A stretch of 61,518 nt of DNA. Origin: Fidelibacterota bacterium. GTDB lineage: Bacteria > Fidelibacterota > Marinisomatia > Marinisomatales > Marinisomataceae. Location of the stretch: positions 1-61,518 of the forward strand of contig JAQXAG010000048.1 in the NCBI GenBank assembly GCA_029253045.1. Reading direction: 5' to 3'. The notes beneath the pieces are model-generated. The model searched no databases. It saw nothing but the letters and a program-made list of their open reading frames with translations, and was not told where the DNA came from. Positions within the stretch are counted from its first letter, which is position 1. Every line of letters begins with the position of its first letter. The translations under genes were made by a program, and so were the position numbers. This document shows positions 21,840-40,550 of this stretch, one piece after another.

Positions 21840-21840
21840 A

Positions 21841-23351: not shown

Positions 23352-23446
23352 CAAATAAGAAAATATTTCACATTATATTATTTCTAATGTAATTTAGGAT
23401 AAACCCATTTTTCCAAAAAACATAAAAATCTAAATATTTAAATATC

Positions 23447-25189
23447 ATGGCCAGAAACAGAGTTATTTATCAAAGTGAGGCGCTTTTTGTAAGCCCAAAT
23501 GCCACAGGATCTCACTTCACATGCACAGCCGTAGTTACGGGACTAGGACCGAAAATTGGAGTTAATCCAGCAACAAATGCAGCAGGTCAGACTGGTAATG
23601 CATTAGCATTGCACACCTTGTCAAGTCCTGTAGGTCTTCAAGAAGATCCACTACTCACAAAAGGGTATGGAGAGGCTGAATTCACCGTTGCGAAATTAGC
23701 ATCAGCTCGAAATGCTGGATTAAATTACGGAAAACCTGGTGTTATAGATGTTCTTAATATTAGTGGTGCTGCAGCAGAATCCATTGGCGCGGAATTAAAA
23801 GCATTAAATGGATGGGAACCTGCAGGAGCGCCAATCTTAAACGGAGGAAATACTCAAAATGCAGCAAGAGCTACTCTTGTAGCTGATAACACTGGTCAGT
23901 TACATTTCTTTACAAGAAAAAGTCATTTTGAAAATGCGGAAGCAGCTTATTTTAAATTAGGTGATGGACCTACTACTGGACCCGCTGGAGCTATATCTGC
24001 AGCAGATAGACAAAAAACTCCTTTCTGCGCTTTTATTCAACCATGGTCTGGCGACTATGAAAATCTTGTTCAACAAATTCATAGGGTACAAAGTGCTAAT
24101 TACAGCTTTACTATTAACAGAACTGATGTTAATACTTTTGGTCAACTCGCAAGAATTGATGCCATCGCACTTGAGCCACCCACAGTAAATCTTGACTTTA
24201 CTTATTACCCAACCGATGGTTTTAATGAAAGAAATCTTGGTTTCTATGTTCAAGGAGAAGACGGTTTGGGAGCACAAATGGGAGCTGCTGCAAGAAATAC
24301 CGCAGCAGGACACATGGGCTCAGACAATGCGGGTAAGAACTTTTTTATCTTAACCACACCTGAATCAACTGATGCATTTAATTCTACCGATTCAATTTCA
24401 GAAAGAAGTGTTATTGGATTAGGTAATGGATTCCTTAGCGATTATACTATAGAAGCCTCTGTTGGATCTATACCAACCGCAAACAGTACGATTGAGCTTT
24501 ATAATGCAAAATCTGACATTGGAACCACTGGAGTATCAATCCCTGGAGTTAATCTTGTAAATGGTCTAGCTTCAACAGGAGCTAACTTCTCACTAGGTCA
24601 TCCTGAATCTTTAAGAGGAGATTTTAAGGGAGCTTCGCCAAGTACTGGTGAGTTCGGAGGCTCTTCAATTACAGCCCTTAGACCTGGAGATATTCAACTT
24701 GAACTTCCTGCAGAACTTTCAATGTTCTCTAAGGTTTCTGGAGATGGAGCAGTTCACATACAAAACTTTAGTTTAAGTATGCCATTAAGCCGTAGCCCAA
24801 TTGATAGGTTAGGAACTAGGTTTGCATTCTCTAGAGTTGTAGACTTGCCCGTAACCGCGTCTCTAAGTGTAAGTGCTTTAATGTCAGACATAGGAACTGG
24901 AAATCTTGCAGACTTACTTGATGATTGTAAGGAGCACGATGTTAAGATCAAAATGTTTGGTCTCACTTCCTGTAATCCTGGAGATGAAAAAGTTCAAGCA
25001 TTAACGGTTGACTTTAAGGGAGCAAGAATTGATAGTGAATCAATGTCATCTGATATTGGAAGCAATAAGAGTGTTGACTTAACTTTCACAACTCAAATTG
25101 GAGGCCCAGAAGATCTTCTCCATGGAGTATTCATTTCTGGCGCGAATAGGAATATTATTCCAACATACGCTGATATACCTAATCGATAA
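23447..25189 (+). CDS. major tail (tube) protein with duplicated tube-like domain (T5 pb6-like architecture)
   Basis: 580 aa, the last gene before the TMP. It has elevated G+C and a strong terminator follows. The N-terminus MARNRVIYQSEALFVS recalls T5 pb6 (LRNTRIFVST). There are two copies of a tube-type motif: VQSANYSFTINRTDVNTFGQL...PPTVNLDFTYY (nt ~24086-24206) and IQNFSLSMPLSRSPIDRLGTR...PVTASLSVSAL (nt ~24757-24880). Confidence 0.65.
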   Translation: MARNRVIYQSEALFVSPNATGSHFTCTAVVTGLGPKIGVNPATNAAGQTGNALALHTLSSPVGLQEDPLLTKGYGEAEFTVAKLASARNAGLNYGKPGVIDVLNISGAAAESIGAELKALNGWEPAGAPILNGGNTQNAARATLVADNTGQLHFFTRKSHFENAEAAYFKLGDGPTTGPAGAISAADRQKTPFCAFIQPWSGDYENLVQQIHRVQSANYSFTINRTDVNTFGQLARIDAIALEPPTVNLDFTYYPTDGFNERNLGFYVQGEDGLGAQMGAAARNTAAGHMGSDNAGKNFFILTTPESTDAFNSTDSISERSVIGLGNGFLSDYTIEASVGSIPTANSTIELYNAKSDIGTTGVSIPGVNLVNGLASTGANFSLGHPESLRGDFKGASPSTGEFGGSSITALRPGDIQLELPAELSMFSKVSGDGAVHIQNFSLSMPLSRSPIDRLGTRFAFSRVVDLPVTASLSVSALMSDIGTGNLADLLDDCKEHDVKIKMFGLTSCNPGDEKVQALTVDFKGARIDSESMSSDIGSNKSVDLTFTTQIGGPEDLLHGVFISGANRNIIPTYADIPNR

Positions 25190-25209
25190 ATAAAAGCATA
25201 AATCGATTT

Positions 25210-25241
25210 AAAAAAACCCGCCAAATGGCGGGTTTTTTTTG
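25210..25241 (+). terminator. rho-independent terminator (A-tract / GC hairpin / T-tract, potentially bidirectional)
   Basis: A7 (25210-25216), stem CCCGCC (25217-25222), loop AAAT, stem GGCGGG (25227-25232), and T8 (25233-25240). Confidence 0.85.
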
Positions 25242-25269
25242 TTTATACAAATGTCAATTATCTATGTTT

Positions 25270-25279
25270 GGTGTAATAT
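25270..25279 (+). promoter_or_regulatory. GGTGTAATAT upstream element before tape measure gene
   Basis: GTGTAAT core 21 nt upstream of ATG 25300, directly after the terminator. An AAGGA-like ribosome-binding site follows (taaggatatATG). Confidence 0.4.
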
Positions 25280-25299
25280 CTGTTAAGGAATAAGGATAT

Positions 25300-28200
25300 A
25301 TGCCATTAAAAATACCAACAGTACAAGTAGGCCTTGAAAAGTCTATACAAAAAGCTGTAAAGAATGTTAGTTCTAGAGGCGGATTAAACTTATCTCTTAA
25401 TGATAGAAATTTTACTAGACCTTTAGGGAAGATAACTGGTTCAGTAAGCGAATTCAATAAATCACTAGAAGCTTCAAATGCTAGAGTTTTAGCTTTCGGC
25501 GCATCTGTAGGGATCATAAACGGTGTACAAACTGCATTTAAAGCATTATTGCAAACTACAATACAGGTAGAAAAACAGCTTACTGAAATTAACATCGTTA
25601 TGGGATTAACTAACTCTCAGTTAGATGATTTCTCAAAAGGACTTTTTAAAGTAGCTAAGAATACAGCACAATCTTTTTCAACTGTTGCAACTGCAGCAAC
25701 AGAACTAGCAAGACAAGGTTTGACGATGGAGGAAACCTTGAAAAGAACTAATGATGCCCTTATACTTACAAGGTTGACTGGCTTAGATGCTGCTAATGCA
25801 GTAAGCGGTTTAACTGCAGCTTTAAACACATTTAATAAAGCTGGTCTAGACTCCACCAAAATTTTAAGTAAAATGGCTGCGGTTGATGTTCAATTCGCAG
25901 TTAGTACTGAAGACTTGATTGATGCCGTGTCTAGAGCTGGTGCTGTAGCTCAAGATGCTGGTGTTAGTTTCGACCAACTACTAGGTGCTGTTACCGCAGC
26001 TCAACAACAAACAGCTAGAGGCGGTAAAGTTATAGGTAATAGTTTTAAAACTATATTTACTCGTGTGCAAAGATCTAGCACCATAAGTAGATTAGAAGAA
26101 TTGGGTATAGCAGTCAGAGATATAGCAGGTAATACATTACCAGCCATAACAGTTCTTGAAAATTTATCTAAAACATATGAAACTTTAGCTGACACTACGA
26201 AAGCTGCTGTTGCAGAGCAAGTGGGTGGAGTTTTTCAAATCAACATTTTAAAAGCTGCTATAAACGATTTGTCATCAGCAAACAGTATATTAGCTAGAGC
26301 CACTCAAATATCAGCCAGTGCAACAGACGAAGCTTATAAAAAGAACGAAATTCTGAATAGGTCGCTATCCGCATTATCTTCTCAAGCGGCATCGAGCATA
26401 AAAGAGCTTGCTAATTTAGTTGGAGATATTGGGTTTTCTGACCAAATTAGAGATTATCTAACTTTTATTAGAGATCAGGTTAGCGGAATATCAGACTTCC
26501 TGGGGCAAAAAGAAGGGGAGTCAGCTGGAGCAGATTTTGCAAAAGGATTAATTGCTGGAATAGGAAACGTAATAAGTGGGCCAGGTTTATTTTTAGCTGG
26601 AGCCGTCTTAATAAAACTTTTTGCAAAAACATCTCAATTTCTTCTTGGAAGTGCTAAAGAATTAATGGGTGTTGTAAGTGCTTCTCAAAAACAAAAAAGA
26701 ATACAAGAATCAATTGTTACAGTTCTTGGTGAAAATAGCAATTTACAAAGAAGAATATTATCTCAAGAAGGCAATAGAGCAGCTCAAGAAAAAACAATAC
26801 TCACTTTGCTTCAAGCCCAAAATAGAGAGCAACAAAGAATTGCTGCCGCTGCGAAAGCAATAGGGCCTTCGGTTTTAAGAGCGGGTTTTAATACGGGATT
26901 GAGTAAAGGGAAAAGCGGAGGGCATATACCTAATTATGTGTCTGCAGAAGAAAGGATAATGGAGAAACAGGGTGCGAGATCTGGAGGTTATTCCGCTGGT
27001 TCAGTGAAATCAATGAATGTTGGAGGAAGGGGTAGGGTAGTATATAATACAGCCGAAAAAGTTAAAAAATTTCCAGGACTTAGCGAACCAGCTATAATGC
27101 CGCCCCAGCAAAGTTCTGCAGGAAAAAAATACCAAAACAGTTTTGAACAAATACATGGATTTAATCCTTATAGCAATAAGGGTATGGTTCCAAATTATGC
27201 GAATCCTAGATCTAAAGTATTCGCTAAAGAAATGGGGGGAGGTCAAGTAGGAGGTCCACCCAGACAGGTTACTTTTACATCGATGGTAGGGTCTAAAAAG
27301 TTCGTCGATGCTCAAACGATGGAAATTCCAGTATCAGGATCTGATAAAATGGGGCTACAAGTTATTTTTACTGGAGACTCTCCGCAAAGCTTGAGAGGTC
27401 AAGGATATGGAACTGAACTTTATGAGCATATGGCTGGATATGCAAAGAAGAAAGGGTATGCTGGATTATACGGCGATATGGGAACATCTATTTCTGCCAT
27501 GAGAGTTATAGATAGTATAGCTAAAAGAAAAACTTTTAAAGTTGAAAAAGCTAAAGATCTTAAATTTCATAAAGATGATTTTGAAACAGAGGGAATGTGG
27601 GGTAGTGATGATTGGACATATAAACTATCCAGTCAAGGGAAAATACCTAATTATGCACTATCTAATACTCCAGTAGGAGCTGATTTCTTACTTGGCTTAA
27701 GTGCCGCTAGTCCAGCCAACTACAAAACGAGTACAATAGCTAAGTATGAAGCGCACAAAGATCCAACAAAACTTAATGACTTATTGTCCAGCCCCCAAAG
27801 AACACTTGAGGCGTTAAAGTATTTAGATAATAAAGGCTTAAACCAAGTAAAAGACTCAATGCTGTCTACTGGATTGCTAACAGATAGAGATTGGGAGTTA
27901 GTAAAACAAGGGGTTGGTAAAAAACCCGAAGGTAATATAGCGGATATTCTTAGGAAGACACCCGCTAGAGATTTGTTAAATTACATGTCTGGAAATACAG
28001 ATAGAATAAGCGGAAATATACCAGGAACATTTCTAAGGTTAATGGATAGAGATGAAAGAGATAAAATTGCTCTTGACATGATAGGAAGAACAGGAGTCTC
28101 TGGGGTTGTTAAAAAACAAGTTGGATTAATGGGCAAAAGCAAAAACAGAATGCGAGATGCTCAAATGGAAGTTATGTCATCAGACGTGCCAAGGTTAGCA

Positions 28201-31200
28201 TACAACCCAGAAAGAGGCATAACTAAAGCTAGAAGCCAGGGCTACTTGCTGGCTCAAATGTATAGGACAGGAAACCCTAGAGCTTCTCAACCATTTTATC
28301 CAGATTCATTTATTGATAGCAAGGGCGAGCTTAAGAAATTTAGAAAATTTGGAGATTTTTCAGAAAGACAAAATAGAATAAAGAAAATAGCAGACCAAAG
28401 AAGGATTGAATCCTCTTTTAGTTCAGGGCAAGGATCTTTAATGAGAGGAGCTGCATTAAACCAAAATTCAGGAAGAAATCTGTTGCTTTCTAACTTAGCC
28501 GCAGGAGGGGTAAGAAATCAAAAAGCAGTTCAAGATTTTGAACAGTTAATCTCCAGGGAACAAAACCCTTTAACAAGTAAACAAGCAATATCAAAAATTG
28601 CACCAAGTATAACACTGAATAAAGATTTAGAAGACTATTACAAAAAACTTAGAAAAAGATCAAGAGGTAGATTTGGTTTTAGTGACGGCATGATCCCCAA
28701 TTATGCGATGCGAATAGACCCTACAAAAATATCACCTTTTGCATCAAGAGCAAGGGCGGGAAAAATTAACTCTTCAAAACACGATGGAGTTATAGGAATG
28801 TCAAAACTCTCTGAGATATTAAATGGTAGATTATTTACATCCATAAAATACCAGAAATCAGGAGGAGGGGGAACTCAAGACCTTTTTCTCTCTGGGGCTA
28901 GGTCTGGTGTTCATAAATATAAAAAAGGAGCACCGCCTCCTGCTAAGTACACAAGCTATGCAGACATGGACGCTAAAACAGGAACAACGGTTGTTCATGC
29001 AAACTCTGCGGGAGTTGGAGAGAAAGGCTACAGAAGATTAAAACTAAATAGAGTAGACAGTGTAGTCTCGCAAGGTAAGCATTTTAAAGTTGATCCTAAC
29101 ATGGCTAATGCAGGAATGGTTCCTAATTTTATGCTTGGAAAAATAAGAACAGTGGCCCAGGCAGTGGGGATGTTTAAAAAGGATACTGGTTTATTTTCTG
29201 CTCTTTCAGGTAAAAACTTTTGGAGCAGAAGAACTAATTCTATAAAATTAAGAGAAAGTAATTATGACGAAGTAAGACAATTTATTAATAGTAGGTCTTT
29301 TAGATCGCTGCCAGAAGGCGAAAGAAATAAAATATTAAAAGACTTAAAAAATCAATCTGAAAATCTAAATGTAAACGATGTAACTAGATCTTATTTTCAA
29401 TATGGAGATCCTGATTATCAAGGAAGAATTCATGCTAGCTCAGGAGCTATACCAAATTATGCAAATCTATTTTCAGGTGGAGCTTCAAAAGTATTATCAA
29501 AAAACCCTCAATATGGTGGAGCTGTAAAAGACGCAATAGCTAGAGAAGCTTCTTTTGGGCTGACTCCTAGAGTGGTACAAGCTCCATCTTTAAGAAGCTC
29601 AAGAAATCCAGGGTTAGCTGTAGTAAACCAAGAACAAGAAGGAGGCAGGTTGTCTAATGCAAGAAAGTTGCATGGAGGTTTAAACCCTAACAAGAAAAGC
29701 TCTGCAATTCCTAATTATGCAATACAACCAGTTGGTTTAAGTGAAGTAATACAATCTAGAGTAGGAGCGTTAAGAGAGGTTGATGCTCTAGGCTTAGATG
29801 CTGTATCAAAATCTGCCGAGAGAGCTTCTCAAACAATTGATGAGCTTAGCGCAAGTACTCAGAAGGGAGAAGATTTCTTAAAACAACAATCTCAACAGTA
29901 TGCAAATTCTGCAGAATTAATAAAAGAAAATAACCTAAGGGAAAAGGCAAGGCTGGGAACTCTCAAGAGAGAGAGTGTTGAGAGAAAAAAATACATGAGA
30001 GAAACCTTTAGGAAAGATGCTTTAGGTTCTCTAGCTGGAACTGATGGCCCAATGGGAGATTTAGCAAAATCCCTACAAGGAGAAGGCTTCGAAAAAAATC
30101 TAAGAACTCAAATGGGGGTCGCACAACAATCAGGAGATGTAGAGACATTAAAAGGGTTAGAAAGATTGAATGATGCTATAGATAGAAGTGCTTCATCAGC
30201 CATGGATGACCCAAAAACTCAAGCAAAATTCCTAGAAGATAGTTTGAAGAAAGCCAGTAGAGACGAAAAAAGACTGGAAAGATTTAGAGGCACAAAAGGA
30301 TACGGACAAACAGAGCTTAAAAAGTTTTTTGCTCAAGAATTTCTATCTCAAAGAGGTGTTCAAACCACAGACCAAACACAAGCCTTAAGTGTTCTAAGCT
30401 CAATGGGACGAAGAGGACAAGAAGATTTTAAAGCTTTTACTCAAGAACAAGGAGTTTTATCTTCAAATAAGGCATTAGCCAGATCAGGATTAAGGACTGG
30501 GCAATTTGGAAGTTTAGTTAAAGGTGATGGATCAAACTTTATATCTAAACTTGAAAAATTTCAAAACAAATTAGATGCTGGGGAATCAACTAGATCTTTA
30601 AGAAAAGATTTATTTAGAGAAGCAGCTAAAGTAGGGAAAAATTCTGATTCAGCTCAAACCCTTCAAGCTATGGTTGCCAATACAAGACAGCAACAAAAGG
30701 AGGATAAACAACAAAAAAGAAGAGATGCACGAGCTCGCCTTGGTCAAAGACAATTACGACAAGGGGGTGGGTTTAGAGCATCTTTTCTTTCAGGAACTGG
30801 GGGATCAAACTTAAGATCTTCAGGAATTATAGGTGGACTTGGAAATAGATTAGGAAGAACTGCTGGAGCAGCTAGGGCTGGTGCAGGTAATTTTGTGAAG
30901 AGTGGTTTTGCTGGAGGATTTGGCGGGCAAGTTGGATTAGGTTTATCCATAGTAGCCCCTATGCTTGCTGGCATGATCGCCAATCAAACTCCAAGAGAAG
31001 ATAGAGCAACATTAAAAAACGGAAGGTTTGAGGTTGGGGGAACTGGTAAAGATATGGCATCCAGCACACTCATGGGAGTGGGAATGGGAGCTATTTTCGG
31101 AGCTCCTGGAGCTATAGCTGGAGGGTTTATAGGATTTATAAACTCAATGAAGAAAGCTACCCTCACTATAGATGAGCAAATTAGAGTAAGAGAAAAAGAA

Positions 31201-34200
31201 ATAGCTTTAATAGGTCAAAACATGCAAGCCGCACAATCAATACAAAACCTTTCAACATCCAGAGCTCAAGCTTTAGCAACTGGAGATATGGATAAAGTGG
31301 CAAATGTAGATACCGCAATGAATCAAGCTTTAGCGGGAGTTAATGATATTGATACTCTTAAGAGGTTAGCTTCTGCTGGGGGAGATAATGATGCATTATC
31401 TCAAATACAAAGAGGTTTACAAGACCAAATGACTAATGCCGTCAGTGTTCAAAACTTCGGGGTAGCTCTTAAAAATTCAGACCAAGTCAAAGCTGCAAAA
31501 AATGCTGGTGTTGCAATGGGGTCAATGATTGCTCAAGCTATTAGAAATGAAGATATGGACGAAGGTACTGCATTAGAAACCTTGAGAAACATACAAACAA
31601 GTACTGCAGAAAAAGAAGGTATGGGAATGCTTGACACGAAAAGCCTTAATTCTCTAAGAAAACGAGCTGAGGGGGCTCAAGGGATGACGAGTCCAGGTAC
31701 ATTGGGAGGAGCAGGGGTTGGGCTTGCGGCAGCAGGAGGATTGGCTTTAGCGGGTGTTGCGACTGGAGGAGCAGCCTTAGTAGTTGCCGCTCTACTTGCG
31801 GGCGGCGGAGCTTTAGCTGGAAGAGGAATCGAAAGCTCTATGGCGGAAGGTGATTTGGAAGATGCGCAAAAACTTGGATTAGATGAAATAAACGAGCTTT
31901 CTAAGTTAGTTGAAGCTGGAGCTATGACCGAAGTTCAAATGCAACAATTAACGGCTGCATTCAGAGAGGGAGAAATAAGTATAGGTGATATAGCCAAAGA
32001 AGCTGAAGGAGCTGTAATAGAATTTCAAAAAATTAAAAAAGCATCAGATAGAGCTAGCGAAGCATTATTCAATATAGATCAAACTTTTAAAAGAACTATA
32101 TCTAAAATGGCGGTAAGTTTAGAGGTTGACAAAATAAGATCTGGAGCTAAATCTTCGGTAGACAGATCTAATGCTAATTTTTCCTCTCAATTCATGTCTG
32201 GTAAAGATGCCTCATCTTTTCTAGGTAGAAGGCAAAGCAAGATACTAGCAAACGATGCTTCTGCGAGAATAGGTCAATTTTCAAGAGAGACAGATATAGG
32301 ATTCTTAAGAGACGTAAAAGCAAAGAGTAAAAATTTAAACTTTGGAGGTCCTCAGATGGAATTCATAAGAAAGACCGTTGAAGAAAGTGGTGTTGCACCA
32401 ATAGAATCAATGGTAAGATCCAGAAAAATGGATGGGGTAATGAACCTTAATTTAGACACAGGAAGACTAGATGATATATTTGAAGCACTTGGTGTTCAAG
32501 GTGGAGTGGAGAAGTTTCAAGCGAATAGTAGTATCACTATGCCTGAAAATATTAATGACTTAGCAGGGTCTCTTGGAACCAATAATAAAGAAGAGCAAAA
32601 AAGAATAGTAGATGAAATAATACAAAATCTACCTGAAATCAGAAAAACAGGGGAAATGCAGACTAGTTTCACTAGGGAGCTTGCAGAGCCTGATGCAAAA
32701 ATGCTTACAGAAATCTTAGACTCAAGAAAAGAGCAGTTTCAAATAATACAAGAACAAATATTGGCTGAGAGGAAAAACTTAAGCGTTCAGATAGCTCAAA
32801 ATAATATTCAATCACACATACAAAATGATTTAGAATTACTTCAGAGGGAAATGGAAAATAGAGCTATGGCTGAAGAGACTAAACTTTTAGGAATAAAAGG
32901 AAGATCTCAAACAACCAAGTCCTTCGCTTCATTTGAAGGCGGAGAAATGTTTAGAGGAATGAATTCTGATAGTGAGGAGAATTCCAGGCAGGCAAAATTA
33001 AGAAAGCAAATTTTTGACGAGGATATGAAAGTGAGAAAGGCTGAAGCTTTAAACGCTTTGAAAAGAGAAGCTCAAAAAATACTTTCGGAGAAAAATCTTA
33101 TTAATGCATTGAACGATTTAAAAAGTTCTATAGATGAACAACTTGATGAAGCAGCAAAAGAGGGAGACATTTCTCAAGGTCAAGGAGGAGGATTATTGGT
33201 AGACAAAGGAGGGCAAGGCGGGGGAGCTGCAGGAGTTGGCAAAAGGCTTTCCGTGTTCAAGTCAGTAGAGGGTAGTTCAAAGATAAATGATCAAATACAA
33301 AAAGAAGGAACCCAAATAACAAATAAAAAGTCAGAAATAAAAACTATAAATGCAAAAAAAGAAAAACAAGTAAGCACGCAAAACAAAAAAGAAACAGAAA
33401 TAAAGACAATAACAGATTACCTGAATAGGGTTAGCTCTGCTAATAAACTGCCAGAAAATAAAGTTTTTTCAAAAAATGGGTTTAGTCTTGGTAATATACA
33501 AAGAATTAATTTAAGAGAGAGTGCTCTTGACGACATAAGAGATGACCTTAAAAGAGACCCTAAAATGAGTGCTCAGTTAGCTCAAACAACATACTCGGAA
33601 GGCGGCGATGGATTCGATGATGGAGGTGTGGTCCAAAGGACTAGAGATGCTACCGCAGGCGAAATGTCAGGCAGGCTGAAAGAATTGCTAGGCGAAAGAG
33701 AAAATGAGCTTAAGGCGGCTACCGAAAAAGTAGCAAAAAGAGATACTGACATAGCAGCACTAGAAGCTGACATACAAACAAGAGAAGAAAGAATAAAGAA
33801 ACTAGAAGAGAATTTGAGAGGTAGTGTTGTAGAATTAAGCGATGTTTTAAAAGGTCAGAACATAAAATTAGAAAAGATAAATTTAATAAACACAAAAGAG
33901 TTACAAGATAAAATTCAAGGAGCTACAAATTTAGAAGAAGTAACATCGGTTTTCGAATCAGAAATAAAAAGGCTAGGAGAAGGAAGGGTTGATGAGGTTA
34001 TTAGTGCAAGAATAAAGACATTAACCGAAGTCATGAAAAGCTTAAATTCAGGGCTGACCGAAGCAGAAAGAGGATTCAATGTAGCAGAAGCTCAAAGAGC
34101 AATGGAAGATTTTAATAGTAATTTAAATTTTTCTTCATATTCAAAATCTTCTTTTAATAGCATTAGAGGAATGGACAATGTAAATATTAGATCTATGGCT

Positions 34201-35937
34201 GGAGCAAGAGCGATGTCCAAAGTAGAAGACCAAACAAGAAGAGAGCAAGAATTTGATTTAGTACGAAACGACCCAACATCTACGAGAGCTGAAATAGCAA
34301 GGGCCGAAGCTGATATGGTGTCAAGAACGATAGGAACTAAAGATCAAAGAACTAAAATGACTGACATGAGGGGTGACTTAGCTACATATAACAGAAGTTT
34401 AAAAGGAGAAGAAGAACGTAAGTTAAATGCAATATCTACTGGAGATAAAGATTCTCAGGCTAGTGCTGAGGCGCAGATAGTAGATTTAAAGGATGCTATA
34501 TTAGAATTAGATACATCTATGGAGGATTTAGCCCTAGAGATGACTAGGACAACTCCTAGGGATAAAGGTTTTATGGGTGAATTTACAGAAAATACATCTA
34601 TGGGTTTAAAAATGGGATTTGCTGAGATAGAAGAGCAATCCGAACTAATTTATACTAGGTTGGGTAGAGATTTGCCTATGCTCTTTAGGGACGGCCTAGT
34701 TGATGCAATGCAAGCTGCAATTGACGGAAGTCAAAGCTTAGAAGATTCTTTTAGGCAAATTGGTGTCACACTTTTACAAAACATACAAAAAGCATTCTTG
34801 ACTAGCGCATCAAATAGAATAACAGGAGCTGTAGGAAATCTTTTTGACATAGATGGCTACAACTCAGGGGGATATGTAAATGGTGGCAGCGGAACTAAAG
34901 ACGATATTCCTGCTATGTTGATGGGTGGAGAATACGTAATAAAGAAAAGCGCTGTTGATAGATATGGAGTTAACTTTCTTGAAAATCTAAATAGTGGAAC
35001 TTTGCCTGGATTTAGAGATGGAGGAGGAGTTAATTTAGCTATAGGTGGGCCAAAAGTAGCAGAAAGAGAAAAATTTATTGATGAAAATAAATATGGAAAT
35101 GTTACTAGATACAAGACTACAAAAGCTGGAATAGGTATAAACAGTTCATTATCTTCATATGCCATAAATAACGATAGGTCTATTCAGAAATACTTTAGAG
35201 ATCAAGAGGGGCAATTCAATCAAGATATATCAACAAGAAATCAAGAAAAACAAAGAAAGAAACAAGAAGAGTACCAGAAAAAAGTAGAAAAAAATCAAAT
35301 GTGGAATGCGCTTATAGGCATTGCTGGCTCAGCTTTATTAAGTAAAGCTATTGATTTTGGTATGGATAAATATAATCAAACTGATTTTGCAAAAAATAGA
35401 GCGGCTAAAAAAGCTCAGCGCTCGATGGATGATAAAGGTTATGTTGACGTAAGAGGAAGAAGCATAAATAAAATTTATAAAAAACCTTCTGAAGCAGCAA
35501 AAGTTAGAAGTGAGATTAGAAGTGTTCATAGGAATAATGGGTGGGAAGCTTCTTCAGCCCTTATGAGGGATTATGGAATTGGGGGTTCTGTTGATAAGGA
35601 TGGCATAGTTATAAGAAACAAAGGGGGCGGAGTTCCATCTAGACTTACAGGCGGAGAATATGTAATGAGTCCTAGTGCTGTAAAAACTTACGGATCAACC
35701 TTAATGGAGGGCTTAAATAGCGGTTCTGTTTCAGCTCCAAGTACTTCAGGAGGAGGAGGGTCAGGGCAAGTAAGCAATATTAGTCATGGTGATGTTAATA
35801 TTAGTATTAATGTTGATGGTTCTGGGGGAACATCTGGAGGGGCTGATATTAATTCTTCAGAATTTGCAACTAAAGTTAAAAGTGCTGTAATGCAGGTGAT
35901 ATCAAAAGAAAAAAGAGTGGGAGGCACCTTAAGATAA
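25300..35937 (+). CDS. tail tape measure protein, 3,545 aa
   Basis: The N-terminal ~330 aa match the TP901-family TMP core pattern (TEINIVMGLTNSQLDDFSKGLFKVAKNTAQSFSTVATAATELARQGL...DLIDAVSRAGAVAQDAGVSFDQLLGAVTAAQQQT). There are long coiled-coil stretches and Gly/Ala-rich hydrophobic segments (nt ~26590-26650, 30880-31130, 31690-31830, 35310-35350). The canonical C-terminal motif is present twice. The gene sits between the major tail gene and the tail-tip genes. Confidence 0.9.
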   Translation: MPLKIPTVQVGLEKSIQKAVKNVSSRGGLNLSLNDRNFTRPLGKITGSVSEFNKSLEASNARVLAFGASVGIINGVQTAFKALLQTTIQVEKQLTEINIVMGLTNSQLDDFSKGLFKVAKNTAQSFSTVATAATELARQGLTMEETLKRTNDALILTRLTGLDAANAVSGLTAALNTFNKAGLDSTKILSKMAAVDVQFAVSTEDLIDAVSRAGAVAQDAGVSFDQLLGAVTAAQQQTARGGKVIGNSFKTIFTRVQRSSTISRLEELGIAVRDIAGNTLPAITVLENLSKTYETLADTTKAAVAEQVGGVFQINILKAAINDLSSANSILARATQISASATDEAYKKNEILNRSLSALSSQAASSIKELANLVGDIGFSDQIRDYLTFIRDQVSGISDFLGQKEGESAGADFAKGLIAGIGNVISGPGLFLAGAVLIKLFAKTSQFLLGSAKELMGVVSASQKQKRIQESIVTVLGENSNLQRRILSQEGNRAAQEKTILTLLQAQNREQQRIAAAAKAIGPSVLRAGFNTGLSKGKSGGHIPNYVSAEERIMEKQGARSGGYSAGSVKSMNVGGRGRVVYNTAEKVKKFPGLSEPAIMPPQQSSAGKKYQNSFEQIHGFNPYSNKGMVPNYANPRSKVFAKEMGGGQVGGPPRQVTFTSMVGSKKFVDAQTMEIPVSGSDKMGLQVIFTGDSPQSLRGQGYGTELYEHMAGYAKKKGYAGLYGDMGTSISAMRVIDSIAKRKTFKVEKAKDLKFHKDDFETEGMWGSDDWTYKLSSQGKIPNYALSNTPVGADFLLGLSAASPANYKTSTIAKYEAHKDPTKLNDLLSSPQRTLEALKYLDNKGLNQVKDSMLSTGLLTDRDWELVKQGVGKKPEGNIADILRKTPARDLLNYMSGNTDRISGNIPGTFLRLMDRDERDKIALDMIGRTGVSGVVKKQVGLMGKSKNRMRDAQMEVMSSDVPRLAYNPERGITKARSQGYLLAQMYRTGNPRASQPFYPDSFIDSKGELKKFRKFGDFSERQNRIKKIADQRRIESSFSSGQGSLMRGAALNQNSGRNLLLSNLAAGGVRNQKAVQDFEQLISREQNPLTSKQAISKIAPSITLNKDLEDYYKKLRKRSRGRFGFSDGMIPNYAMRIDPTKISPFASRARAGKINSSKHDGVIGMSKLSEILNGRLFTSIKYQKSGGGGTQDLFLSGARSGVHKYKKGAPPPAKYTSYADMDAKTGTTVVHANSAGVGEKGYRRLKLNRVDSVVSQGKHFKVDPNMANAGMVPNFMLGKIRTVAQAVGMFKKDTGLFSALSGKNFWSRRTNSIKLRESNYDEVRQFINSRSFRSLPEGERNKILKDLKNQSENLNVNDVTRSYFQYGDPDYQGRIHASSGAIPNYANLFSGGASKVLSKNPQYGGAVKDAIAREASFGLTPRVVQAPSLRSSRNPGLAVVNQEQEGGRLSNARKLHGGLNPNKKSSAIPNYAIQPVGLSEVIQSRVGALREVDALGLDAVSKSAERASQTIDELSASTQKGEDFLKQQSQQYANSAELIKENNLREKARLGTLKRESVERKKYMRETFRKDALGSLAGTDGPMGDLAKSLQGEGFEKNLRTQMGVAQQSGDVETLKGLERLNDAIDRSASSAMDDPKTQAKFLEDSLKKASRDEKRLERFRGTKGYGQTELKKFFAQEFLSQRGVQTTDQTQALSVLSSMGRRGQEDFKAFTQEQGVLSSNKALARSGLRTGQFGSLVKGDGSNFISKLEKFQNKLDAGESTRSLRKDLFREAAKVGKNSDSAQTLQAMVANTRQQQKEDKQQKRRDARARLGQRQLRQGGGFRASFLSGTGGSNLRSSGIIGGLGNRLGRTAGAARAGAGNFVKSGFAGGFGGQVGLGLSIVAPMLAGMIANQTPREDRATLKNGRFEVGGTGKDMASSTLMGVGMGAIFGAPGAIAGGFIGFINSMKKATLTIDEQIRVREKEIALIGQNMQAAQSIQNLSTSRAQALATGDMDKVANVDTAMNQALAGVNDIDTLKRLASAGGDNDALSQIQRGLQDQMTNAVSVQNFGVALKNSDQVKAAKNAGVAMGSMIAQAIRNEDMDEGTALETLRNIQTSTAEKEGMGMLDTKSLNSLRKRAEGAQGMTSPGTLGGAGVGLAAAGGLALAGVATGGAALVVAALLAGGGALAGRGIESSMAEGDLEDAQKLGLDEINELSKLVEAGAMTEVQMQQLTAAFREGEISIGDIAKEAEGAVIEFQKIKKASDRASEALFNIDQTFKRTISKMAVSLEVDKIRSGAKSSVDRSNANFSSQFMSGKDASSFLGRRQSKILANDASARIGQFSRETDIGFLRDVKAKSKNLNFGGPQMEFIRKTVEESGVAPIESMVRSRKMDGVMNLNLDTGRLDDIFEALGVQGGVEKFQANSSITMPENINDLAGSLGTNNKEEQKRIVDEIIQNLPEIRKTGEMQTSFTRELAEPDAKMLTEILDSRKEQFQIIQEQILAERKNLSVQIAQNNIQSHIQNDLELLQREMENRAMAEETKLLGIKGRSQTTKSFASFEGGEMFRGMNSDSEENSRQAKLRKQIFDEDMKVRKAEALNALKREAQKILSEKNLINALNDLKSSIDEQLDEAAKEGDISQGQGGGLLVDKGGQGGGAAGVGKRLSVFKSVEGSSKINDQIQKEGTQITNKKSEIKTINAKKEKQVSTQNKKETEIKTITDYLNRVSSANKLPENKVFSKNGFSLGNIQRINLRESALDDIRDDLKRDPKMSAQLAQTTYSEGGDGFDDGGVVQRTRDATAGEMSGRLKELLGERENELKAATEKVAKRDTDIAALEADIQTREERIKKLEENLRGSVVELSDVLKGQNIKLEKINLINTKELQDKIQGATNLEEVTSVFESEIKRLGEGRVDEVISARIKTLTEVMKSLNSGLTEAERGFNVAEAQRAMEDFNSNLNFSSYSKSSFNSIRGMDNVNIRSMAGARAMSKVEDQTRREQEFDLVRNDPTSTRAEIARAEADMVSRTIGTKDQRTKMTDMRGDLATYNRSLKGEEERKLNAISTGDKDSQASAEAQIVDLKDAILELDTSMEDLALEMTRTTPRDKGFMGEFTENTSMGLKMGFAEIEEQSELIYTRLGRDLPMLFRDGLVDAMQAAIDGSQSLEDSFRQIGVTLLQNIQKAFLTSASNRITGAVGNLFDIDGYNSGGYVNGGSGTKDDIPAMLMGGEYVIKKSAVDRYGVNFLENLNSGTLPGFRDGGGVNLAIGGPKVAEREKFIDENKYGNVTRYKTTKAGIGINSSLSSYAINNDRSIQKYFRDQEGQFNQDISTRNQEKQRKKQEEYQKKVEKNQMWNALIGIAGSALLSKAIDFGMDKYNQTDFAKNRAAKKAQRSMDDKGYVDVRGRSINKIYKKPSEAAKVRSEIRSVHRNNGWEASSALMRDYGIGGSVDKDGIVIRNKGGGVPSRLTGGEYVMSPSAVKTYGSTLMEGLNSGSVSAPSTSGGGGSGQVSNISHGDVNISINVDGSGGTSGGADINSSEFATKVKSAVMQVISKEKRVGGTLR
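26920..29721 (+). repeat. seven-fold G-x-(I/V)-P-N-(Y/F)-A motif array within the TMP (protein-level repeat)
   Basis: GHIPNYV 26920-26940; GMVPNYA 27181-27201; GKIPNYA 27637-27657; GMIPNYA 28687-28707; GMVPNFM 29113-29133; GAIPNYA 29443-29463; SAIPNYA 29701-29721. All are in the TMP frame, at aa 541, 628, 780, 1130, 1272, 1382 and 1468. Confidence 0.85.
27208..27560 (+). other. GNAT-like N-acetyltransferase module embedded in the TMP (candidate)
   Basis: MGLQVIFTGDSPQSLRGQGYGTELYEHMAGYAKKKGYAGLYGDMGTSISAMRVIDSIAKRKTFKV fits GNAT motif A (beta4, then R/Q-x-x-G-x-G/A, then helix; RGQGYG at nt 27394-27411). It is followed by beta5-alpha4-beta6-like segments. The module is bounded by IPNYA motifs 2 and 3 (~145 aa). 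Confidence 0.4.
34867..35724 (+). other. two copies of the canonical C-terminal TMP motif (IPxxLxxGEYV...AV..YG...LE.LNSG)
   Basis: GGYVNGGSGTKDDIPAMLMGGEYVIKKSAVDRYGVNFLENLNSG (34867-34998) and NKGGGVPSRLTGGEYVMSPSAVKTYGSTLMEGLNSG (35617-35724). I recognise this as a motif common near the C-termini of siphovirus TMPs. Confidence 0.7.
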
Positions 35938-36772: not shown

Positions 36773-37530
36773 AATATATAAGACATCAAGAATGCGAAGT
36801 AGAAATAAATGGAGAAAAAATTTTTGCAAAAAATGCTTCTCTATCCTCATCTAGCTCTACTAAATCAAATAGAACATATGGGGGAGGTCTAAGACCTTAC
36901 AACTCTACAGATCCCGTAAGCTCATCAGTTCAGTTTTCATATTATATAACAGGTAAAGAAGATTCAATAGATTTATTAACAGGATCTCATCCATGCTCTG
37001 GAAGATTTTGCGGTATAGAATTTTCGGGAGCATACCTCACTAATTACGGGGTTGAGATCGAACCTTACAGGCCAGTTCAGTTTTCAGCATCTTTTGATAT
37101 TTATAGCGGATTTAATCAAGAAACTAAAACAGGTTCTTTTGGGGGAGCGTCAAGTGGACTAGCCAATGGAGCATATACAGAACTATTAAATTTTAATAAA
37201 AATAATATTGGTTTAGATTTTCCGCAAAGAATATCTTACTCTATAGATTGCGAAAGAACACCTAATTATGTTATAGGTTTAGAGCATCCCGTGGACGTAA
37301 GGCATGGAAAAATATCTAAAAATCTTTCTATACAAGGCGAGAATATCGGCAGTGTAATGAATTATTCAGGAAAAGGTTTTGCTAAAATTGAGATCTCCCC
37401 AAGAAATATAGACTATGCAGCAAGAGGTAGAACCCTGAATTGCGAAGGAGTTATAAATAGTCAAAACTTAAGCGTAAGCTCTAGAGGACTATTAAATGGA
37501 TCTATAGATGTCATGGAGAGTGTGAGATGA
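36769..37530 (+). CDS. tube-fold tail protein paralogue B
   Basis: 253 aa, ATGA overlap with the previous gene. EVEINGEKIFAKNASLSSSSS...SSVQFSYYI and PQRISYSIDCERTPNYVIGLEHPVDV...KNLSIQGE parallel the motifs of paralogue A. Confidence 0.5.
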   Translation: MKYIRHQECEVEINGEKIFAKNASLSSSSSTKSNRTYGGGLRPYNSTDPVSSSVQFSYYITGKEDSIDLLTGSHPCSGRFCGIEFSGAYLTNYGVEIEPYRPVQFSASFDIYSGFNQETKTGSFGGASSGLANGAYTELLNFNKNNIGLDFPQRISYSIDCERTPNYVIGLEHPVDVRHGKISKNLSIQGENIGSVMNYSGKGFAKIEISPRNIDYAARGRTLNCEGVINSQNLSVSSRGLLNGSIDVMESVR

Positions 37531-38495
37531 GCGATGTAGTTAATAAAAAACACTTCTGGAATTTAGATAAAGATTTTTATGATACAACAGAAAACTCTGG
37601 AGGGGGTTATTATAATTCATATTCGGATTTTGTTAAAAATTCTAAGATAGAAACTAACTTAAAAAACTTTAAATACAAAAACCCTTTTAGTTTTATTCCT
37701 TCGTATGGAGCTTCAGTATCTATTAATTTTTTAAATAAAGTAAGTAATTACGGAAATAATTATTTAATGGTAGAAGAAAATGGGCTAAATAGAATTATAA
37801 TTACTTTTGAACTTGGTTTCGAGAACAGGGGCGACGATGAATCGGATAATATAATCAGTTATATAAATTCAAAAGGTGGTGCTAAATATTTTCCTTTGCA
37901 GTTTATAGAGAGAGATGGGCTGTCTCTTGAAAATGCCTACAAATCATTATTTTCAATAAACCCCTATATGATTCAAGAGTTTAAATGTAGTTCTATTAGT
38001 TCTAGTTCAAATTATGTAGATAGTAATTCTATTAAACTGGATCTAATAAATGATTTAGCTACTAAATTTAACTCTAGAAATATTATTTACTCAGAATCCT
38101 TGCCGCAAAAAGATAAAGATGTTATAAATGATTATTGGGGCAAAAGCTCTTTAGACATTCAACCTTCATATCCTTTATCCAGAGATGAAGATTTTAATGT
38201 AAAAGAATTAAAATTAGGTAATTCGAAATCTCATTCTGAAGAAGATGGAATAAATGCAAAATTAATGTCTTTATCTTTAAAGTTTGAAGCTATAAACGAC
38301 GAAACATTATTAAAATTATTATCGTTTTTTATATCAAAACATGGAACTGAAACCTTTGAATTTGAATTACAAAGGCCAGAAAGAAAAACTGTTAACTTTA
38401 TGTGCTCTCAAATAAATCATACTTTTTTGTATATGGGATCGCATGATTTGACGGTAAGGGTTAGCGAAGTGCCAATTAAAAGAAAACTTTTATAA
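37527..38495 (+). CDS. minor tail protein (lambda gpM position)
   Basis: 322 aa, ATGA overlap, directly upstream of the L-like gene. The C-terminal FEFELQRPERKTVNFMCSQINHTFLYMGSHDLTVRVSEV is vaguely gpM/DUF2460-like. The call is mainly positional. Confidence 0.35.
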   Translation: MSDVVNKKHFWNLDKDFYDTTENSGGGYYNSYSDFVKNSKIETNLKNFKYKNPFSFIPSYGASVSINFLNKVSNYGNNYLMVEENGLNRIIITFELGFENRGDDESDNIISYINSKGGAKYFPLQFIERDGLSLENAYKSLFSINPYMIQEFKCSSISSSSNYVDSNSIKLDLINDLATKFNSRNIIYSESLPQKDKDVINDYWGKSSLDIQPSYPLSRDEDFNVKELKLGNSKSHSEEDGINAKLMSLSLKFEAINDETLLKLLSFFISKHGTETFEFELQRPERKTVNFMCSQINHTFLYMGSHDLTVRVSEVPIKRKLL

Positions 38496-38535
38496 ATCTC
38501 AATCGAAAAAAATACAAAAAATAATATAATATATA

Positions 38536-39441
38536 ATGGCTTTCTTAAAAAAAGAATCTGTAAATGCTGAACTTTTTAATCACACAAAAAGTGCTCATGT
38601 AGAATTTTTAGAAATATCTGAAATACCAAACTCTGGAGATGTCATTAGACTTCACGGCGGAGTTAACTCAATAAATGAATCAATTTTTTTTGGGGGTAAA
38701 GAGTATTTTTATATTCCATATGAAGGTGTAGACTTTGGAAGTAGGTCTGACGGAAGAGTATCAAGACCCACTATAAAAATAATTAATTATAGCGGATTTC
38801 TTTCGAAGTTCATGTTAGGAAAAGATGATTTAATAAGATCAAGAGTAACTAGAATAAGAACTTTTTTTAGATTTTTAGATAAAGAAAACTTTTTAAATTA
38901 TGATGCTGATAAAGGTTTTTGGGATAAAATGGGAATATCCCCAGATCCAGATGCAAGACTTAGGCCAGATGTATGGTACATAAATCAAAAGATAGAAGAG
39001 AATAAATTTTACATTGAATATGAATTATCCAATGCTCTTGATTTAGAGGGCGCCGTTTTACCCAGAAGGCAAATATTGAATAATTATTGTACATGGAAAT
39101 ACAGAGGAAAAGGTTGCAAGTATAGCGGAGGAGTAGCAGCTGATTCAAACGATGTTAAATTTGATAAAACTTCATTGAACCCAAGAGGTGAGTGGGCTGT
39201 TGGTGAAAATTATATTTTGGGAGATGTTGTTTATGTATGGACTAGGGAGGGGCAGGATCAAAGATCAATAATGTATGTATGCACAGAGCCTCATACATCA
39301 TCAAAAGGACTAAGACCGTCTATAAATACGTCGAATTGGGCTATGGATGCTTGCTCGAAGACCCTAAACGGCTGCAGATTAAGATTCGGTGAAGATAATG
39401 AGCTTCCTTTTGGCGGGTTTCCTTCAAGCAGGCTTTATTAA
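38536..39441 (+). CDS. minor tail protein, lambda gpL-like (Cys-cluster type)
   Basis: 301 aa. NNYCTWKYRGKGCKYSGG (nt ~39081-39130) and the C-terminal CSKTLNGCRLRFGEDNELPFGGFPSSRLY (39351-39438) match the gpL/BR0599-type cysteine cluster and the LPFGGFP ending. Confidence 0.8.
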   Translation: MAFLKKESVNAELFNHTKSAHVEFLEISEIPNSGDVIRLHGGVNSINESIFFGGKEYFYIPYEGVDFGSRSDGRVSRPTIKIINYSGFLSKFMLGKDDLIRSRVTRIRTFFRFLDKENFLNYDADKGFWDKMGISPDPDARLRPDVWYINQKIEENKFYIEYELSNALDLEGAVLPRRQILNNYCTWKYRGKGCKYSGGVAADSNDVKFDKTSLNPRGEWAVGENYILGDVVYVWTREGQDQRSIMYVCTEPHTSSKGLRPSINTSNWAMDACSKTLNGCRLRFGEDNELPFGGFPSSRLY

Positions 39442-39824: not shown

Positions 39825-39836
39825 GGAATAAGGTTT

Positions 39837-40547: not shown

Positions 40548-40550
40548 GCT

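What the first reader, a model, noticed from the sequence alone, without database searches (positions are those of the whole stretch)
25300..35937. Tape measure protein of 3,545 aa implies either a ~0.5 um tail or a largely non-ruler TMP
A single uninterrupted ORF of 10,638 nt has a recognisable TMP N-terminal core and C-terminal motifs. The established ruler relation is about 0.15 nm of tail per TMP residue; lambda gpH has 853 aa and lambda has a tail of about 150 nm. Applied here, it predicts roughly 530 nm if all residues are length-determining, or about 390 nm if the 930-aa IPNYA region is excluded. Either outcome is unusual for a siphovirus-type tail.
Basis: partly seen in the sequence, partly recalled or inferred. 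Interest (0 to 1): 0.6.

Follow-up and report, generated by a model that had tools for sequence, protein, structure and literature searches.

The report
Giant phage tail ruler with cargo bay
This is a real, intact 3,545-residue tail tape-measure gene of an uncultured marine long-tailed phage; it predicts a tail of roughly 0.4-0.55 micrometres, which is long but has cultured precedents, and about a quarter of the protein is a swappable block of non-ruler modules.

Summary
Window 25300-35937 (+) is one uninterrupted 3,545-codon frame. It has a TP901-type tape-measure core (PF10145, aa 118-310) and C-terminal tape-measure motifs, and lambda-like tail-tip genes (M/L/K/I/J homologues) lie downstream.

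Mis-assembly is unlikely. Independent metagenomes hold intact homologues of 3,300-4,850 aa with the same layout, and the ORF contains no long DNA repeats.

The protein has three parts:
- A length-invariant N-core of 540-546 aa in 28 relatives.
- A cassette array (aa 543-1474) of six modules, each ending in G-x-(I/V)-P-N-(Y/F). It is shuffled between relatives, varies from 680 to 2,143 aa, is only 25% helical, and includes one GNAT-fold domain.
- A roughly 2,075-aa region that is about 75% helical and nearly constant in length (2,002-2,389 aa, CV 3.4%), with hydrophobic Gly-rich segments.

"Largely non-ruler" is not supported: about 74% of the protein looks like ruler.

A tail of about 0.5 µm is not exceptional. 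Lactococcus phages 949 and phiL47 have 3,275-aa TMPs and 480-500 nm tails. Thermus P23-45 has a 5,002-aa TMP and an 800 nm tail. The scan has already noted many giant TMPs on other DNA.

Predicted tail length is about 390 nm plus 30-140 nm from the array.

The parts
25300..35937 (+). Tape measure protein gene, 3,545 codons plus stop
   Evidence: Full-length homologues.
25211..25299 (+). Upstream control region: GC hairpin CCCGCC-AAAT-GGCGGG followed by a T run (terminator-like), a GGTGTAATAT element at 25270-25279, and an AAGGA ribosome-binding-like site before the ATG
   Evidence: Read directly. The element was also noted by the earlier scan.
25300..26925 (+). N-core, aa 1-542. It includes PF10145 (aa 118-310, nt 25651-26229) and the first hydrophobic Gly-rich segment (aa 417-442, nt 26548-26625)
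   Evidence: Length is 540-546 aa in 28 relatives at 68-91% identity.
26926..29721 (+). Cassette array, aa 543-1474: six modules (M1-M6), each ending in G-x-(I/V/M)-P-N-(Y/F). The motif hits start at nt 26920, 27181, 27637, 28687, 29113, 29443 and 29707
27214..27552 (+). GNAT-fold domain inside module M2 (aa 639-751; R-G-Q-G-Y-G at aa 699-704)
   Evidence: AF2 pLDDT 77-88. All 50 top Foldseek PDB matches are GNAT acetyltransferases. The Pfam Acetyltransf_1 match is only E=0.005, below the cut-off.
29722..35934 (+). Post-array ruler-like region, aa 1475-3545. It consists mainly of long alpha-helices
   Evidence: AF2: aa 1475-2930 is 73% helix, with helices up to 85 aa. Length is 2,002-2,389 aa in 28 relatives, CV 3.4%. 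It is collinear in relatives.
30925..31830 (+). Three hydrophobic Gly-rich segments (aa 1876-1894, 1929-1947, 2135-2177), candidates for membrane insertion
   Evidence: Hydropathy scan. Invariant Gly/Pro columns in alignment A2. Low-confidence coil in AF2.
34825..35739 (+). Two copies of the C-terminal tape-measure motif (…GGEYV…L-N-S-G), at aa 3209 and aa 3451
   Evidence: PHROG tape-measure C-terminal matches to aa ~3176-3250.
23447..25189 (+). 580-aa gene directly upstream, presumed major tail (tube) protein by position only
   Evidence: No family or PDB match. It is syntenic in relatives.
37527..49193 (+). Lambda-like tail-tip genes: gpM-like 37527-38495 (PF05939), gpL-like 38536-39441 (PF05100), gpK-like 39441-39824 (JAB), gpI-like 39837-40547 (phrog_32), gpJ-like 40551-49193 (PF13550, 2,880 aa)

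Best explanation
The ORF is the genuine, intact tape measure protein of an uncultured marine siphovirus-type phage. The contig looks like a fragment of a genome of roughly 200 kb that was binned with a ~1-Mb Marinimicrobia-like genome.

How it most likely works, inferred from lambda, TP901-1 and T5:
- The C-terminal motifs seat in the lambda-like tip complex.
- The tube protein polymerises along a TMP trimer until it reaches the conserved N-core.
- On infection the TMP is expelled, and its Gly-rich hydrophobic segments help form the conduit through the envelope.

The protein is a composite of three parts:
- The N-core, aa 1-542.
- A swappable 'cargo bay', aa 543-1474, made of six modules. One module has a GNAT fold. 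Each module ends in the linear motif G-x-(I/V)-P-N-(Y/F).
- A ~2,070-residue, mostly alpha-helical ruler.

The two flanks together (about 2,610 aa) give about 390 nm at 0.15 nm per residue. The array sits between two essential ends, so it must travel inside the tube. It adds somewhere between about 30-60 nm if compacted and about 140 nm if extended or helical as in TM4. The predicted tail is therefore about 0.42-0.53 µm.

Shown here: the ORF, the domains, the three-part architecture, the length statistics, the predicted secondary structure, and the calibrators. Inferred: trimer stoichiometry, orientation in the tail, how the array packs, and delivery of the modules into the host.
For: - TMP identity: PF10145, PHROG tape-measure matches to the N-terminus and the C-terminus.
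- Position: between a presumed tail gene and gpM/L/K/I/J homologues. No sheath-family match in the bin.
- Architecture across 28 full-length relatives: N-core 540-546 aa (CV 0.2%), array 680-2,143 aa with 5-13 motifs (CV 32%), post-array 2,002-2,389 aa (CV 3.4%). Total length correlates with array length at r=0.99.
- Modules M2-M5 change order and presence between relatives. M1 is always first, M6 always last, and C1-C5 are collinear.
- AF2: the array is 25% helix and 67% coil or low confidence, with a confident alpha/beta domain. There is a sharp switch to long confident helices at aa ~1480, and aa 1475-2930 is 73% helix.
- GNAT fold for M2.
- Array modules were found only inside giant TMP-like proteins among 1.84 billion representatives: 326 clusters, lengths up to 5,198 aa.
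- Calibrators: phiL47 3,275 aa and 480 nm; 949 3,276 aa and 500 nm. P23-45 5,002 aa and 800 nm, with an N-terminal RNAP present in virions as part of full-length TMP. Deleting the 114-aa embedded motif in TM4 shortened tails from 200 to 180 nm.
- TP901-1: the N-terminal 154 aa and the C-terminal 60 aa are essential, and deletions elsewhere shorten tails linearly.
- Lumen-volume estimate for the lower bound on the array's contribution (4-nm tube bore from PMC9022992).
Against: - No virion of this phage or of any close relative has been seen. The closest cultured TMPs are only 25-31% identical, and only over the core.
- No tail-assembly-chaperone pair was recognised upstream of the TMP, and the tube protein is assigned by position only.
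- Array length and post-array length do not compensate each other (r=+0.37 to +0.51). Either total tail length is free to vary, or the array is not measured at all. The data cannot separate these.
- AF2 confidence is low for modules M3 and M4 because the alignment is shallow, so 'non-helical' there is not established.
- aa 2931-3545 and aa 1-530 were not modelled.
- Read-level verification was impossible.
Confidence: 0.8

Rival explanations
1. Ruler-skipping. Only the length-conserved flanks measure the tail, which is then about 390 nm and the same in all close relatives. The array is excluded from the ruler: looped, folded at the head-proximal end, or removed before tube polymerisation.
For: The flanks are length-invariant although pieces C1, C3 and C4 are only 24-46% identical. 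The array varies three-fold and is shuffled. There is no negative length compensation between the array and the ruler. The array is non-helical and contains a folded GNAT domain too wide for three copies to sit side by side in a 4-nm bore.
Against: The array lies between the two ends that are essential in TP901-1, so the tube has to pass over it. In TM4 an embedded enzymatic motif counts fully. P23-45 gives 0.16 nm/aa only if its RNAP domain is counted. The ratio of net to total indel columns in the post-array region (0.23-0.29) is not clearly below random expectation, so selection on length is suggestive rather than proven.
Confidence: 0.3
2. Polyprotein. The TMP precursor is cut at the G-x-I-P-N-Y-A motifs, for instance by a phage protease such as the serine-protease unit of the 2,801-aa protein at 3329-11734. 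This would release free cargo proteins and separate the N-core from the ruler, so that the mature ruler is only about 2,070 aa and the tail about 310 nm.
For: The motifs sit in low-confidence, linker-like stretches at every module boundary. They are 150-fold over-represented and confined to the TMP. C-terminal processing of TMPs is known for lambda gpH and T5 pb2 (general knowledge, not checked here). An earlier scan note reports a protease unit on the same contig (not tested here).
Against: There is no evidence of cleavage. The N-core is the most conserved part (68-91% identity, length +/-3 aa), and a TP901-type N-terminus is needed for tail assembly. That is hard to reconcile with cutting it off the ruler before assembly. 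In P23-45 the fused enzyme stays part of full-length TMP in virions.
Confidence: 0.12
3. Assembly or annotation artefact: two or more genes fused by a chimeric or collapsed assembly.
For: The sequence comes from a metagenome bin of 108 contigs. Read mapping could not be run.
Against: The same architecture, with the same boundaries, is found in at least 28 protein clusters and at least 9 distinct contigs from independent samples. There are no internal long repeats. The e^-250 chance of an open frame rules out accident.
Confidence: 0.02

Closest known systems
Tape measure proteins of Lactococcus phages 949 and phiL47 (Audreyjarvisvirus): 3,276 and 3,275 aa, with tails of 500 and 480 nm
   Same: They carry a PF10145 TP901-type core and are of almost the same size. 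They belong to siphoviruses with genomes over 100 kb. Globular domains are embedded in the ruler: SLT at aa 2374-2462 and LysM at aa 3130-3176 in phiL47. They follow about 0.15 nm per residue.
   Different: Identity is only about 28% over the core. There is no IPNY motif array and no GNAT module. The PF10145 domain sits at aa 701-899 rather than 118-310. The hosts are Gram-positive and the tip genes are different.
Thermus phage P23-45 gp96 (and P74-26): a 5,002-aa TMP with an N-terminal virion RNA polymerase and a tail of 800 nm or more
   Same: A giant TMP that carries a fused enzyme, presumably delivered with the TMP. The enzyme part lies towards the N-terminus and membrane segments lie downstream.
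   Different: No DxDxD signature is present here. The cargo here is internal, lying after a conserved 542-aa core. It is multi-modular, shuffled between relatives, and punctuated by a repeated linear motif.
Mycobacteriophage TM4 gp17 TMP with an embedded peptidoglycan-hydrolase motif
   Same: A small enzymatic motif sits inside a ruler. It provides the only experimental answer to the question 'do embedded motifs count?': deleting 114 aa shortened the tail by about 20 nm.
   Different: It has a single short motif with a cell-wall function. Here there is an array of about 930 aa and no recognisable wall hydrolase.
TP901-1 TMP (founder of PF10145) and lambda gpH with its M-L-K-I-J tip module
   Same: The PF10145 core is shared, and so are hydrophobic segments, essential N- and C-termini, and the ruler mechanism. 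The downstream gpM, gpL, gpK, gpI and gpJ homologues are in lambda order.
   Different: This TMP is about 4 times longer. Two extra genes (277 and 253 aa) lie between the TMP and the gpM homologue. No G/GT chaperone pair was recognised between the tail gene and the TMP, and a terminator-like hairpin sits there instead.

Membership tests
TP901-family phage tail tape measure protein (PF10145) | PhageMin_Tail domain above the Pfam gathering score | tested here: met
   90.4 bits against a cut-off of 33.2, aa 118-310. 98 bits in the genome search.
TP901-family phage tail tape measure protein (PF10145) | Gene located in the tail module, upstream of the distal-tail/tip genes | tested here: met
   gpM, gpL, gpK, gpI and gpJ homologues lie at 37527-49193. 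The same order is seen in a relative on a 198-kb contig.
TP901-family phage tail tape measure protein (PF10145) | Predominantly long alpha-helical body with hydrophobic (membrane-type) segments | tested here: met
   73-76% helix in aa 1475-2930, with helices up to 85 aa. Four hydrophobic Gly-rich segments. The 932-aa array is not helical.
TP901-family phage tail tape measure protein (PF10145) | Conserved C-terminal tape-measure motif | tested here: met
   aa ~3176-3250 matches the C-terminal ends of PHROG tape-measure families 3547, 23013, 973, 10030, 934 and others. The motif is present twice.
TP901-family phage tail tape measure protein (PF10145) | Tail assembly chaperone pair (G/GT, -1 frameshift) immediately upstream | tested here: inconclusive
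   None of the upstream ORFs at 21378-25189 has a family match. The gap at 25190-25299 holds a terminator-like hairpin and no ORF. Divergent chaperones elsewhere cannot be excluded.
TP901-family phage tail tape measure protein (PF10145) | Protein length determines tail length (deletions shorten the tail) | not testable with these tools
   This needs virions or recombinant tails. Only analogue calibrators are available.
TMP-fused virion RNA polymerase (P23-45 gp96 type) | Two-barrel RNAP with a DxDGD metal-binding signature in the N-terminal part | tested here: not met
   No D-x-D-x-D motif occurs anywhere in the 3,545 aa. The N-terminus is the PF10145 core.
GNAT acetyltransferase (module M2 only) | GNAT alpha/beta fold | tested here: met
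   AF2 domain at aa 639-751 with pLDDT 77-88. The top 50 Foldseek PDB hits are all GNATs, with target TM-scores of 0.19-0.48 (0.36 or higher in all but two), probability 0.91-1.0 and E from 1.6e-3 to 4e-2.
GNAT acetyltransferase (module M2 only) | Sequence-family membership and an acetyl-CoA motif A (R/Q-x-x-G-x-G/A) | tested here: inconclusive
   PF00583 gives E=0.0048 at 17.6 bits, below the 20.7 cut-off, and covers motif A only. R-G-Q-G-Y-G is present at aa 699-704. Activity is untested.
Lambda-like siphovirus tail tip | gpM, gpL, gpK (JAB), gpI and gpJ homologues in order, with no sheath | tested here: met
   PF05939, PF05100, PF14464, phrog_32 and PF13550. No PF04984 sheath match in the bin. 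A divergent sheath cannot be formally excluded.

The most novel reading that the evidence does not exclude
The IPNY-delimited array is a plug-and-play cargo bay. Pre-made effector domains (a GNAT-fold enzyme and others of unknown fold) would be stored in the tail lumen and injected ahead of the DNA. The G-x-I-P-N-Y-A motif would act as the docking or cleavage signal and as the in-frame recombination joint. The tube would 'skip' the bay, so that tail length is set by the constant flanks alone. This would be a ruler that ignores up to 2,100 residues of its own chain.
Probability: 0.3. Interest if true: 0.7.

Novelty: new variant of a known kind. Interest (0 to 1): 0.42.

Why it matters
Giant tape measures and half-micrometre tails are already known, so size alone is not news.

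What is useful is the natural experiment this family offers. Dozens of related phages keep an invariant N-core and a ruler of about 2,080 residues, yet carry anywhere from 680 to 2,143 residues of shuffled, non-helical modules in between.

This bears directly on an open question stated in the structural literature (PMC9022992): what the TMP looks like inside the tube, and whether embedded folded domains are measured. If the modules are injected effectors, this is also a general route by which marine phages deliver ready-made proteins, similar in principle to the P23-45 TMP-fused RNA polymerase but modular and exchangeable.

Tried and rejected
- Megablast of the ORF against GenBank phages found no match. 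tblastn of the N-core found only 25-31% identity to Bacillus, Flavobacterium and Lactococcus phage TMPs, so no cultured relative has a measured tail.
- The genome-contig scan with the N-core found no relative. Only 1 of 37 same-genus genomes holds a relative, so the host assignment stays weak.
- Pfam and PHROGs on the array and on the middle ruler pieces found nothing, apart from the weak GNAT hit. A PDB sequence search of the array found nothing.
- The attempt to show compensated indels in the post-array region was inconclusive. Indels average about 172 columns against a net change of about 39, but that ratio (0.23-0.29) is close to what a random walk of 20-30 events would give. I do not use it as evidence of selection.
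- The first fragment alignment for AF2 (A1) had misplaced rows at 13-25% identity. I rebuilt it without them as A3. As a result, modules M3 and M4 remain unmodelled.
- The 580-aa upstream gene could not be identified as a tube protein by Pfam, PHROGs or PDB.
- Literature searches for a tape measure with an acetyltransferase domain, and for Marinimicrobia phages, found nothing relevant.
- A P23-45-type RNAP was rejected because there is no DxDxD motif.
Full report
**Observation**

Window 25300-35937 (+) is a single ATG-initiated frame of 3,545 codons with no stop. The open frame begins only two codons upstream. In DNA of about 37% G+C a stop-free run of this length has a probability of about e^-250.

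The 110 nt upstream hold three signals:
- a GC hairpin followed by a T run, CCCGCC-AAAT-GGCGGG-T8;
- a GGTGTAATAT element;
- an AAGGA ribosome-binding-like site.

The gene therefore looks like the start of its own transcription unit.

The ORF contains no direct repeat longer than 34 nt. The only recurrent DNA words are the 20-22-nt stretches that encode the IPNY motifs.

**Identity**

- PF10145 (PhageMin_Tail, the TP901-type tape-measure core) matches aa 118-310 at 90 bits, against a cut-off of 33.
- Seven PHROG tape-measure families match aa 13-578.
- The C-terminal piece at aa ~3176-3250 matches the C-terminal ends of about a dozen PHROG tape-measure families. The motif (…GGEYV…LNSG) occurs twice, at aa 3209 and 3451.
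- Downstream lie homologues of lambda gpM (PF05939), gpL (PF05100), gpK (JAB), gpI (phrog_32) and a 2,880-aa gpJ (PF13550).
- No sheath-family match exists in the bin.

This is a lambda-like non-contractile tail module, and the ORF is its tape measure.

**Not an assembly artefact**

- The search for homologous proteins returned 107 clusters of 2,007-4,877 aa. P0002 (3,580 aa) is 59% identical over 100% of the query.
- IMG/VR holds 15 loci. In nine or more distinct contigs from different metagenomes the homologous frame is uninterrupted over 3,324-4,266 codons.
- A relative sits on a 198-kb contig with exactly the same gene order on both sides.

**Anatomy**

Comparison with 28 full-length close relatives splits the protein into three parts.

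1. *N-core.* This runs from aa 1 to the first motif. It is 540-546 aa in every relative (CV 0.2%) at 68-91% identity.

2. *Array, aa 543-1474.* It comprises six modules, each ending in G-x-(I/V/M)-P-N-(Y/F).
   - Seven motif copies are present where 0.047 are expected from composition, and none occurs elsewhere in the window.
   - In relatives the array ranges from 680 to 2,143 aa with 5-13 motifs (CV 32%). It accounts for nearly all the variation in total length (r=0.99).
   - Module M1 is always first and M6 always last. M2-M5 change order and come and go. For example, the GNAT-like M2 starts at aa 640, 1161, 1425, 784, 1401 or 1188 in different relatives.

3. *Post-array region, aa 1475-3545.* It is 2,002-2,389 aa long (mean 2,093, CV 3.4%; SD 40 aa without one outlier). 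It is collinear in all relatives, even though pieces C1, C3 and C4 are only 24-46% identical in all relatives but the closest.

In the wider family the post-array part ranges from about 1,000 to 2,900 aa, so ruler length does evolve between clades.

**Predicted structure**

AF2 on aa 1731-2930 (10-sequence alignment) gave a mean pLDDT of 65. Long helices of up to 85 residues are interrupted by low-confidence Gly-rich hydrophobic stretches and a few hairpins.

AF2 on aa 531-1730 (22 rows) showed the following:
- The array is only 25% helix, 8% strand and 67% coil or low confidence.
- It contains one confident alpha/beta domain (aa 639-751, pLDDT 77-88) and a smaller helix-hairpin unit in M6.
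- At aa ~1480 there is an abrupt switch to long helices with pLDDT 80-97.

Overall, aa 1475-2930 is 73% helix.

All 50 best Foldseek PDB matches of the array model are GNAT acetyltransferases. The sequence-level Pfam match is sub-threshold. M2 therefore has a GNAT fold, but activity is unproven.

Four hydrophobic Gly-rich segments lie at aa 417-442, 1876-1894, 1929-1947 and 2135-2177. They are conserved.

A phmmer search of the array against 1.84 billion representative proteins found 326 clusters. Essentially all are giant TMP-like proteins of up to 5,198 aa, or obvious fragments of them, with M1 at about residue 550-650. The modules are thus specific to this TMP family.

**Calibration of the ruler rule**

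| Phage | TMP | Tail | nm per aa | Source |
|---|---|---|---|---|
| phiL47 | 3,275 aa (includes SLT and LysM domains) | 480 nm | 0.147 | |
| 949 | 3,276 aa | 500 nm | 0.153 | |
| P23-45 gp96 | 5,002 aa | 800 nm | 0.16, counting its ~1,100-aa N-terminal RNA polymerase, which stays part of full-length TMP in virions | |

Two experiments bear on the rule. Deleting a 114-aa embedded hydrolase motif from the TM4 TMP shortened tails from 200 to 180 nm. In TP901-1 the N-terminal 154 and C-terminal 60 residues are essential, and internal deletions shorten tails linearly.

Applied here:
- all residues: 521-567 nm;
- without the array: 384-418 nm;
- post-array region only: 304-331 nm.

**Which estimate?**

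The array lies between the two ends that a TP901-type TMP needs, so the growing tube must pass over it. It therefore most likely sits in the lumen and adds some length.

A trimer packed as tightly as folded protein in a 4-nm bore (bore from PMC9022992) would need only about 0.03-0.06 nm per residue. That is 30-60 nm for the array. An extended or helical state, as in TM4, would add about 140 nm. This gives roughly 0.42-0.53 µm.

The alternative is that the array is skipped entirely, giving about 390 nm in all relatives. Two observations favour it: the contrast between rigid flanks and a free array, and the absence of any negative length compensation (r=+0.37 to +0.51). The experimental precedents disfavour it. 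I give it about 30%.

Cleavage at the motifs remains possible but has no direct support. An earlier scan note reports a phage protease unit at 3329-11734.

The TMP call, the coordinates, the array and the arithmetic are right. 'Largely non-ruler' is wrong, because about 74% of the chain is ruler-like. 'Unusual either way' is overstated, because cultured phages with 3,275-aa TMPs and 0.5-µm tails have been known since the 949 group was described. P23-45 and P74-26 go well beyond that. This scan has itself recorded dozens of giant TMPs, including one of about 8,200 codons (not checked by me).

**Context**

The window is the whole 61.5-kb contig C97 of a 961-kb, 108-contig bin. The bin's RpoB is 85-86% identical to that of a single-cell genome labelled Candidatus Marinimicrobia.

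The contig carries only phage-like genes. Its tetranucleotide profile correlates a little less well with the bin than most of the bin's other long contigs do (r=0.977 against about 0.99 for most). A relative is present in only 1 of 37 same-genus genomes. It is therefore a co-binned phage fragment rather than a prophage, and the host assignment is tentative.

Relatives reach 192-198 kb on four independent contigs. This suggests a genome near the 'jumbo' threshold.

**Novelty and interest**

As a giant TMP this is a new member of a known kind. The conserved three-part design, with a motif-punctuated and shuffled cargo array that includes a GNAT fold, is in my judgement a new variant. I found no description of it in the searchable literature.

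Interest is moderate. The size-to-tail inference is ordinary. The family would nevertheless be a good system for asking whether embedded domains are measured by a protein ruler.

Noticed in passing
P0204 (protein); also P0032 and P0006: The same TMP family contains a 5,198-aa member with nine IPNY motifs. That is longer than the 5,002-aa P23-45 TMP usually cited as the giant. Members of 4,877 and 4,845 aa also exist.
   Followed up: partly
The phage is probably a ~200-kb, near-jumbo siphovirus, and the 61.5-kb window is only a fragment of it.
   Followed up: partly
window 35939-36772 (+): The 277-aa protein directly after the TMP has a weak, sub-threshold Hcp/TssD (tube-fold) match at aa 196-263 (E=0.009). 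Together with the next 253-aa gene, it is an extra pair between the TMP and the gpM homologue that lambda lacks.
   Followed up: no
window 25211-25299: A strong terminator-like hairpin (CCCGCC-AAAT-GGCGGG-T8) and a GGTGTAATAT element separate the presumed tail-tube gene from the TMP. No G/GT chaperone genes lie in the canonical position.
   Followed up: partly
window 21378-21839 and 21784-22494 (+): Two ORFs of 153 and 236 aa overlap by 56 nt in different frames. In the relative L019 the equivalents are adjacent and do not overlap (6073-6531 and 6533-7177). They could be a displaced chaperone pair, but this was not tested.
   Followed up: no
whole bin G000; contig C14 1987-5718: The bin's RpoB is 85-86% identical to a SAG labelled Candidatus Marinimicrobia (AH-287-F08). 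The genus has genomes of only 0.7-1.1 Mb, whereas order-level relatives have 1.5-3.3 Mb. It is a strongly streamlined lineage.
   Followed up: partly
L102 7099-17004 (Lactococcus phage PMBT69, PQ036876.1): The 3,301-aa tape measure gene of this cultured 949-like phage is annotated only as 'hypothetical protein' in GenBank.
   Followed up: no
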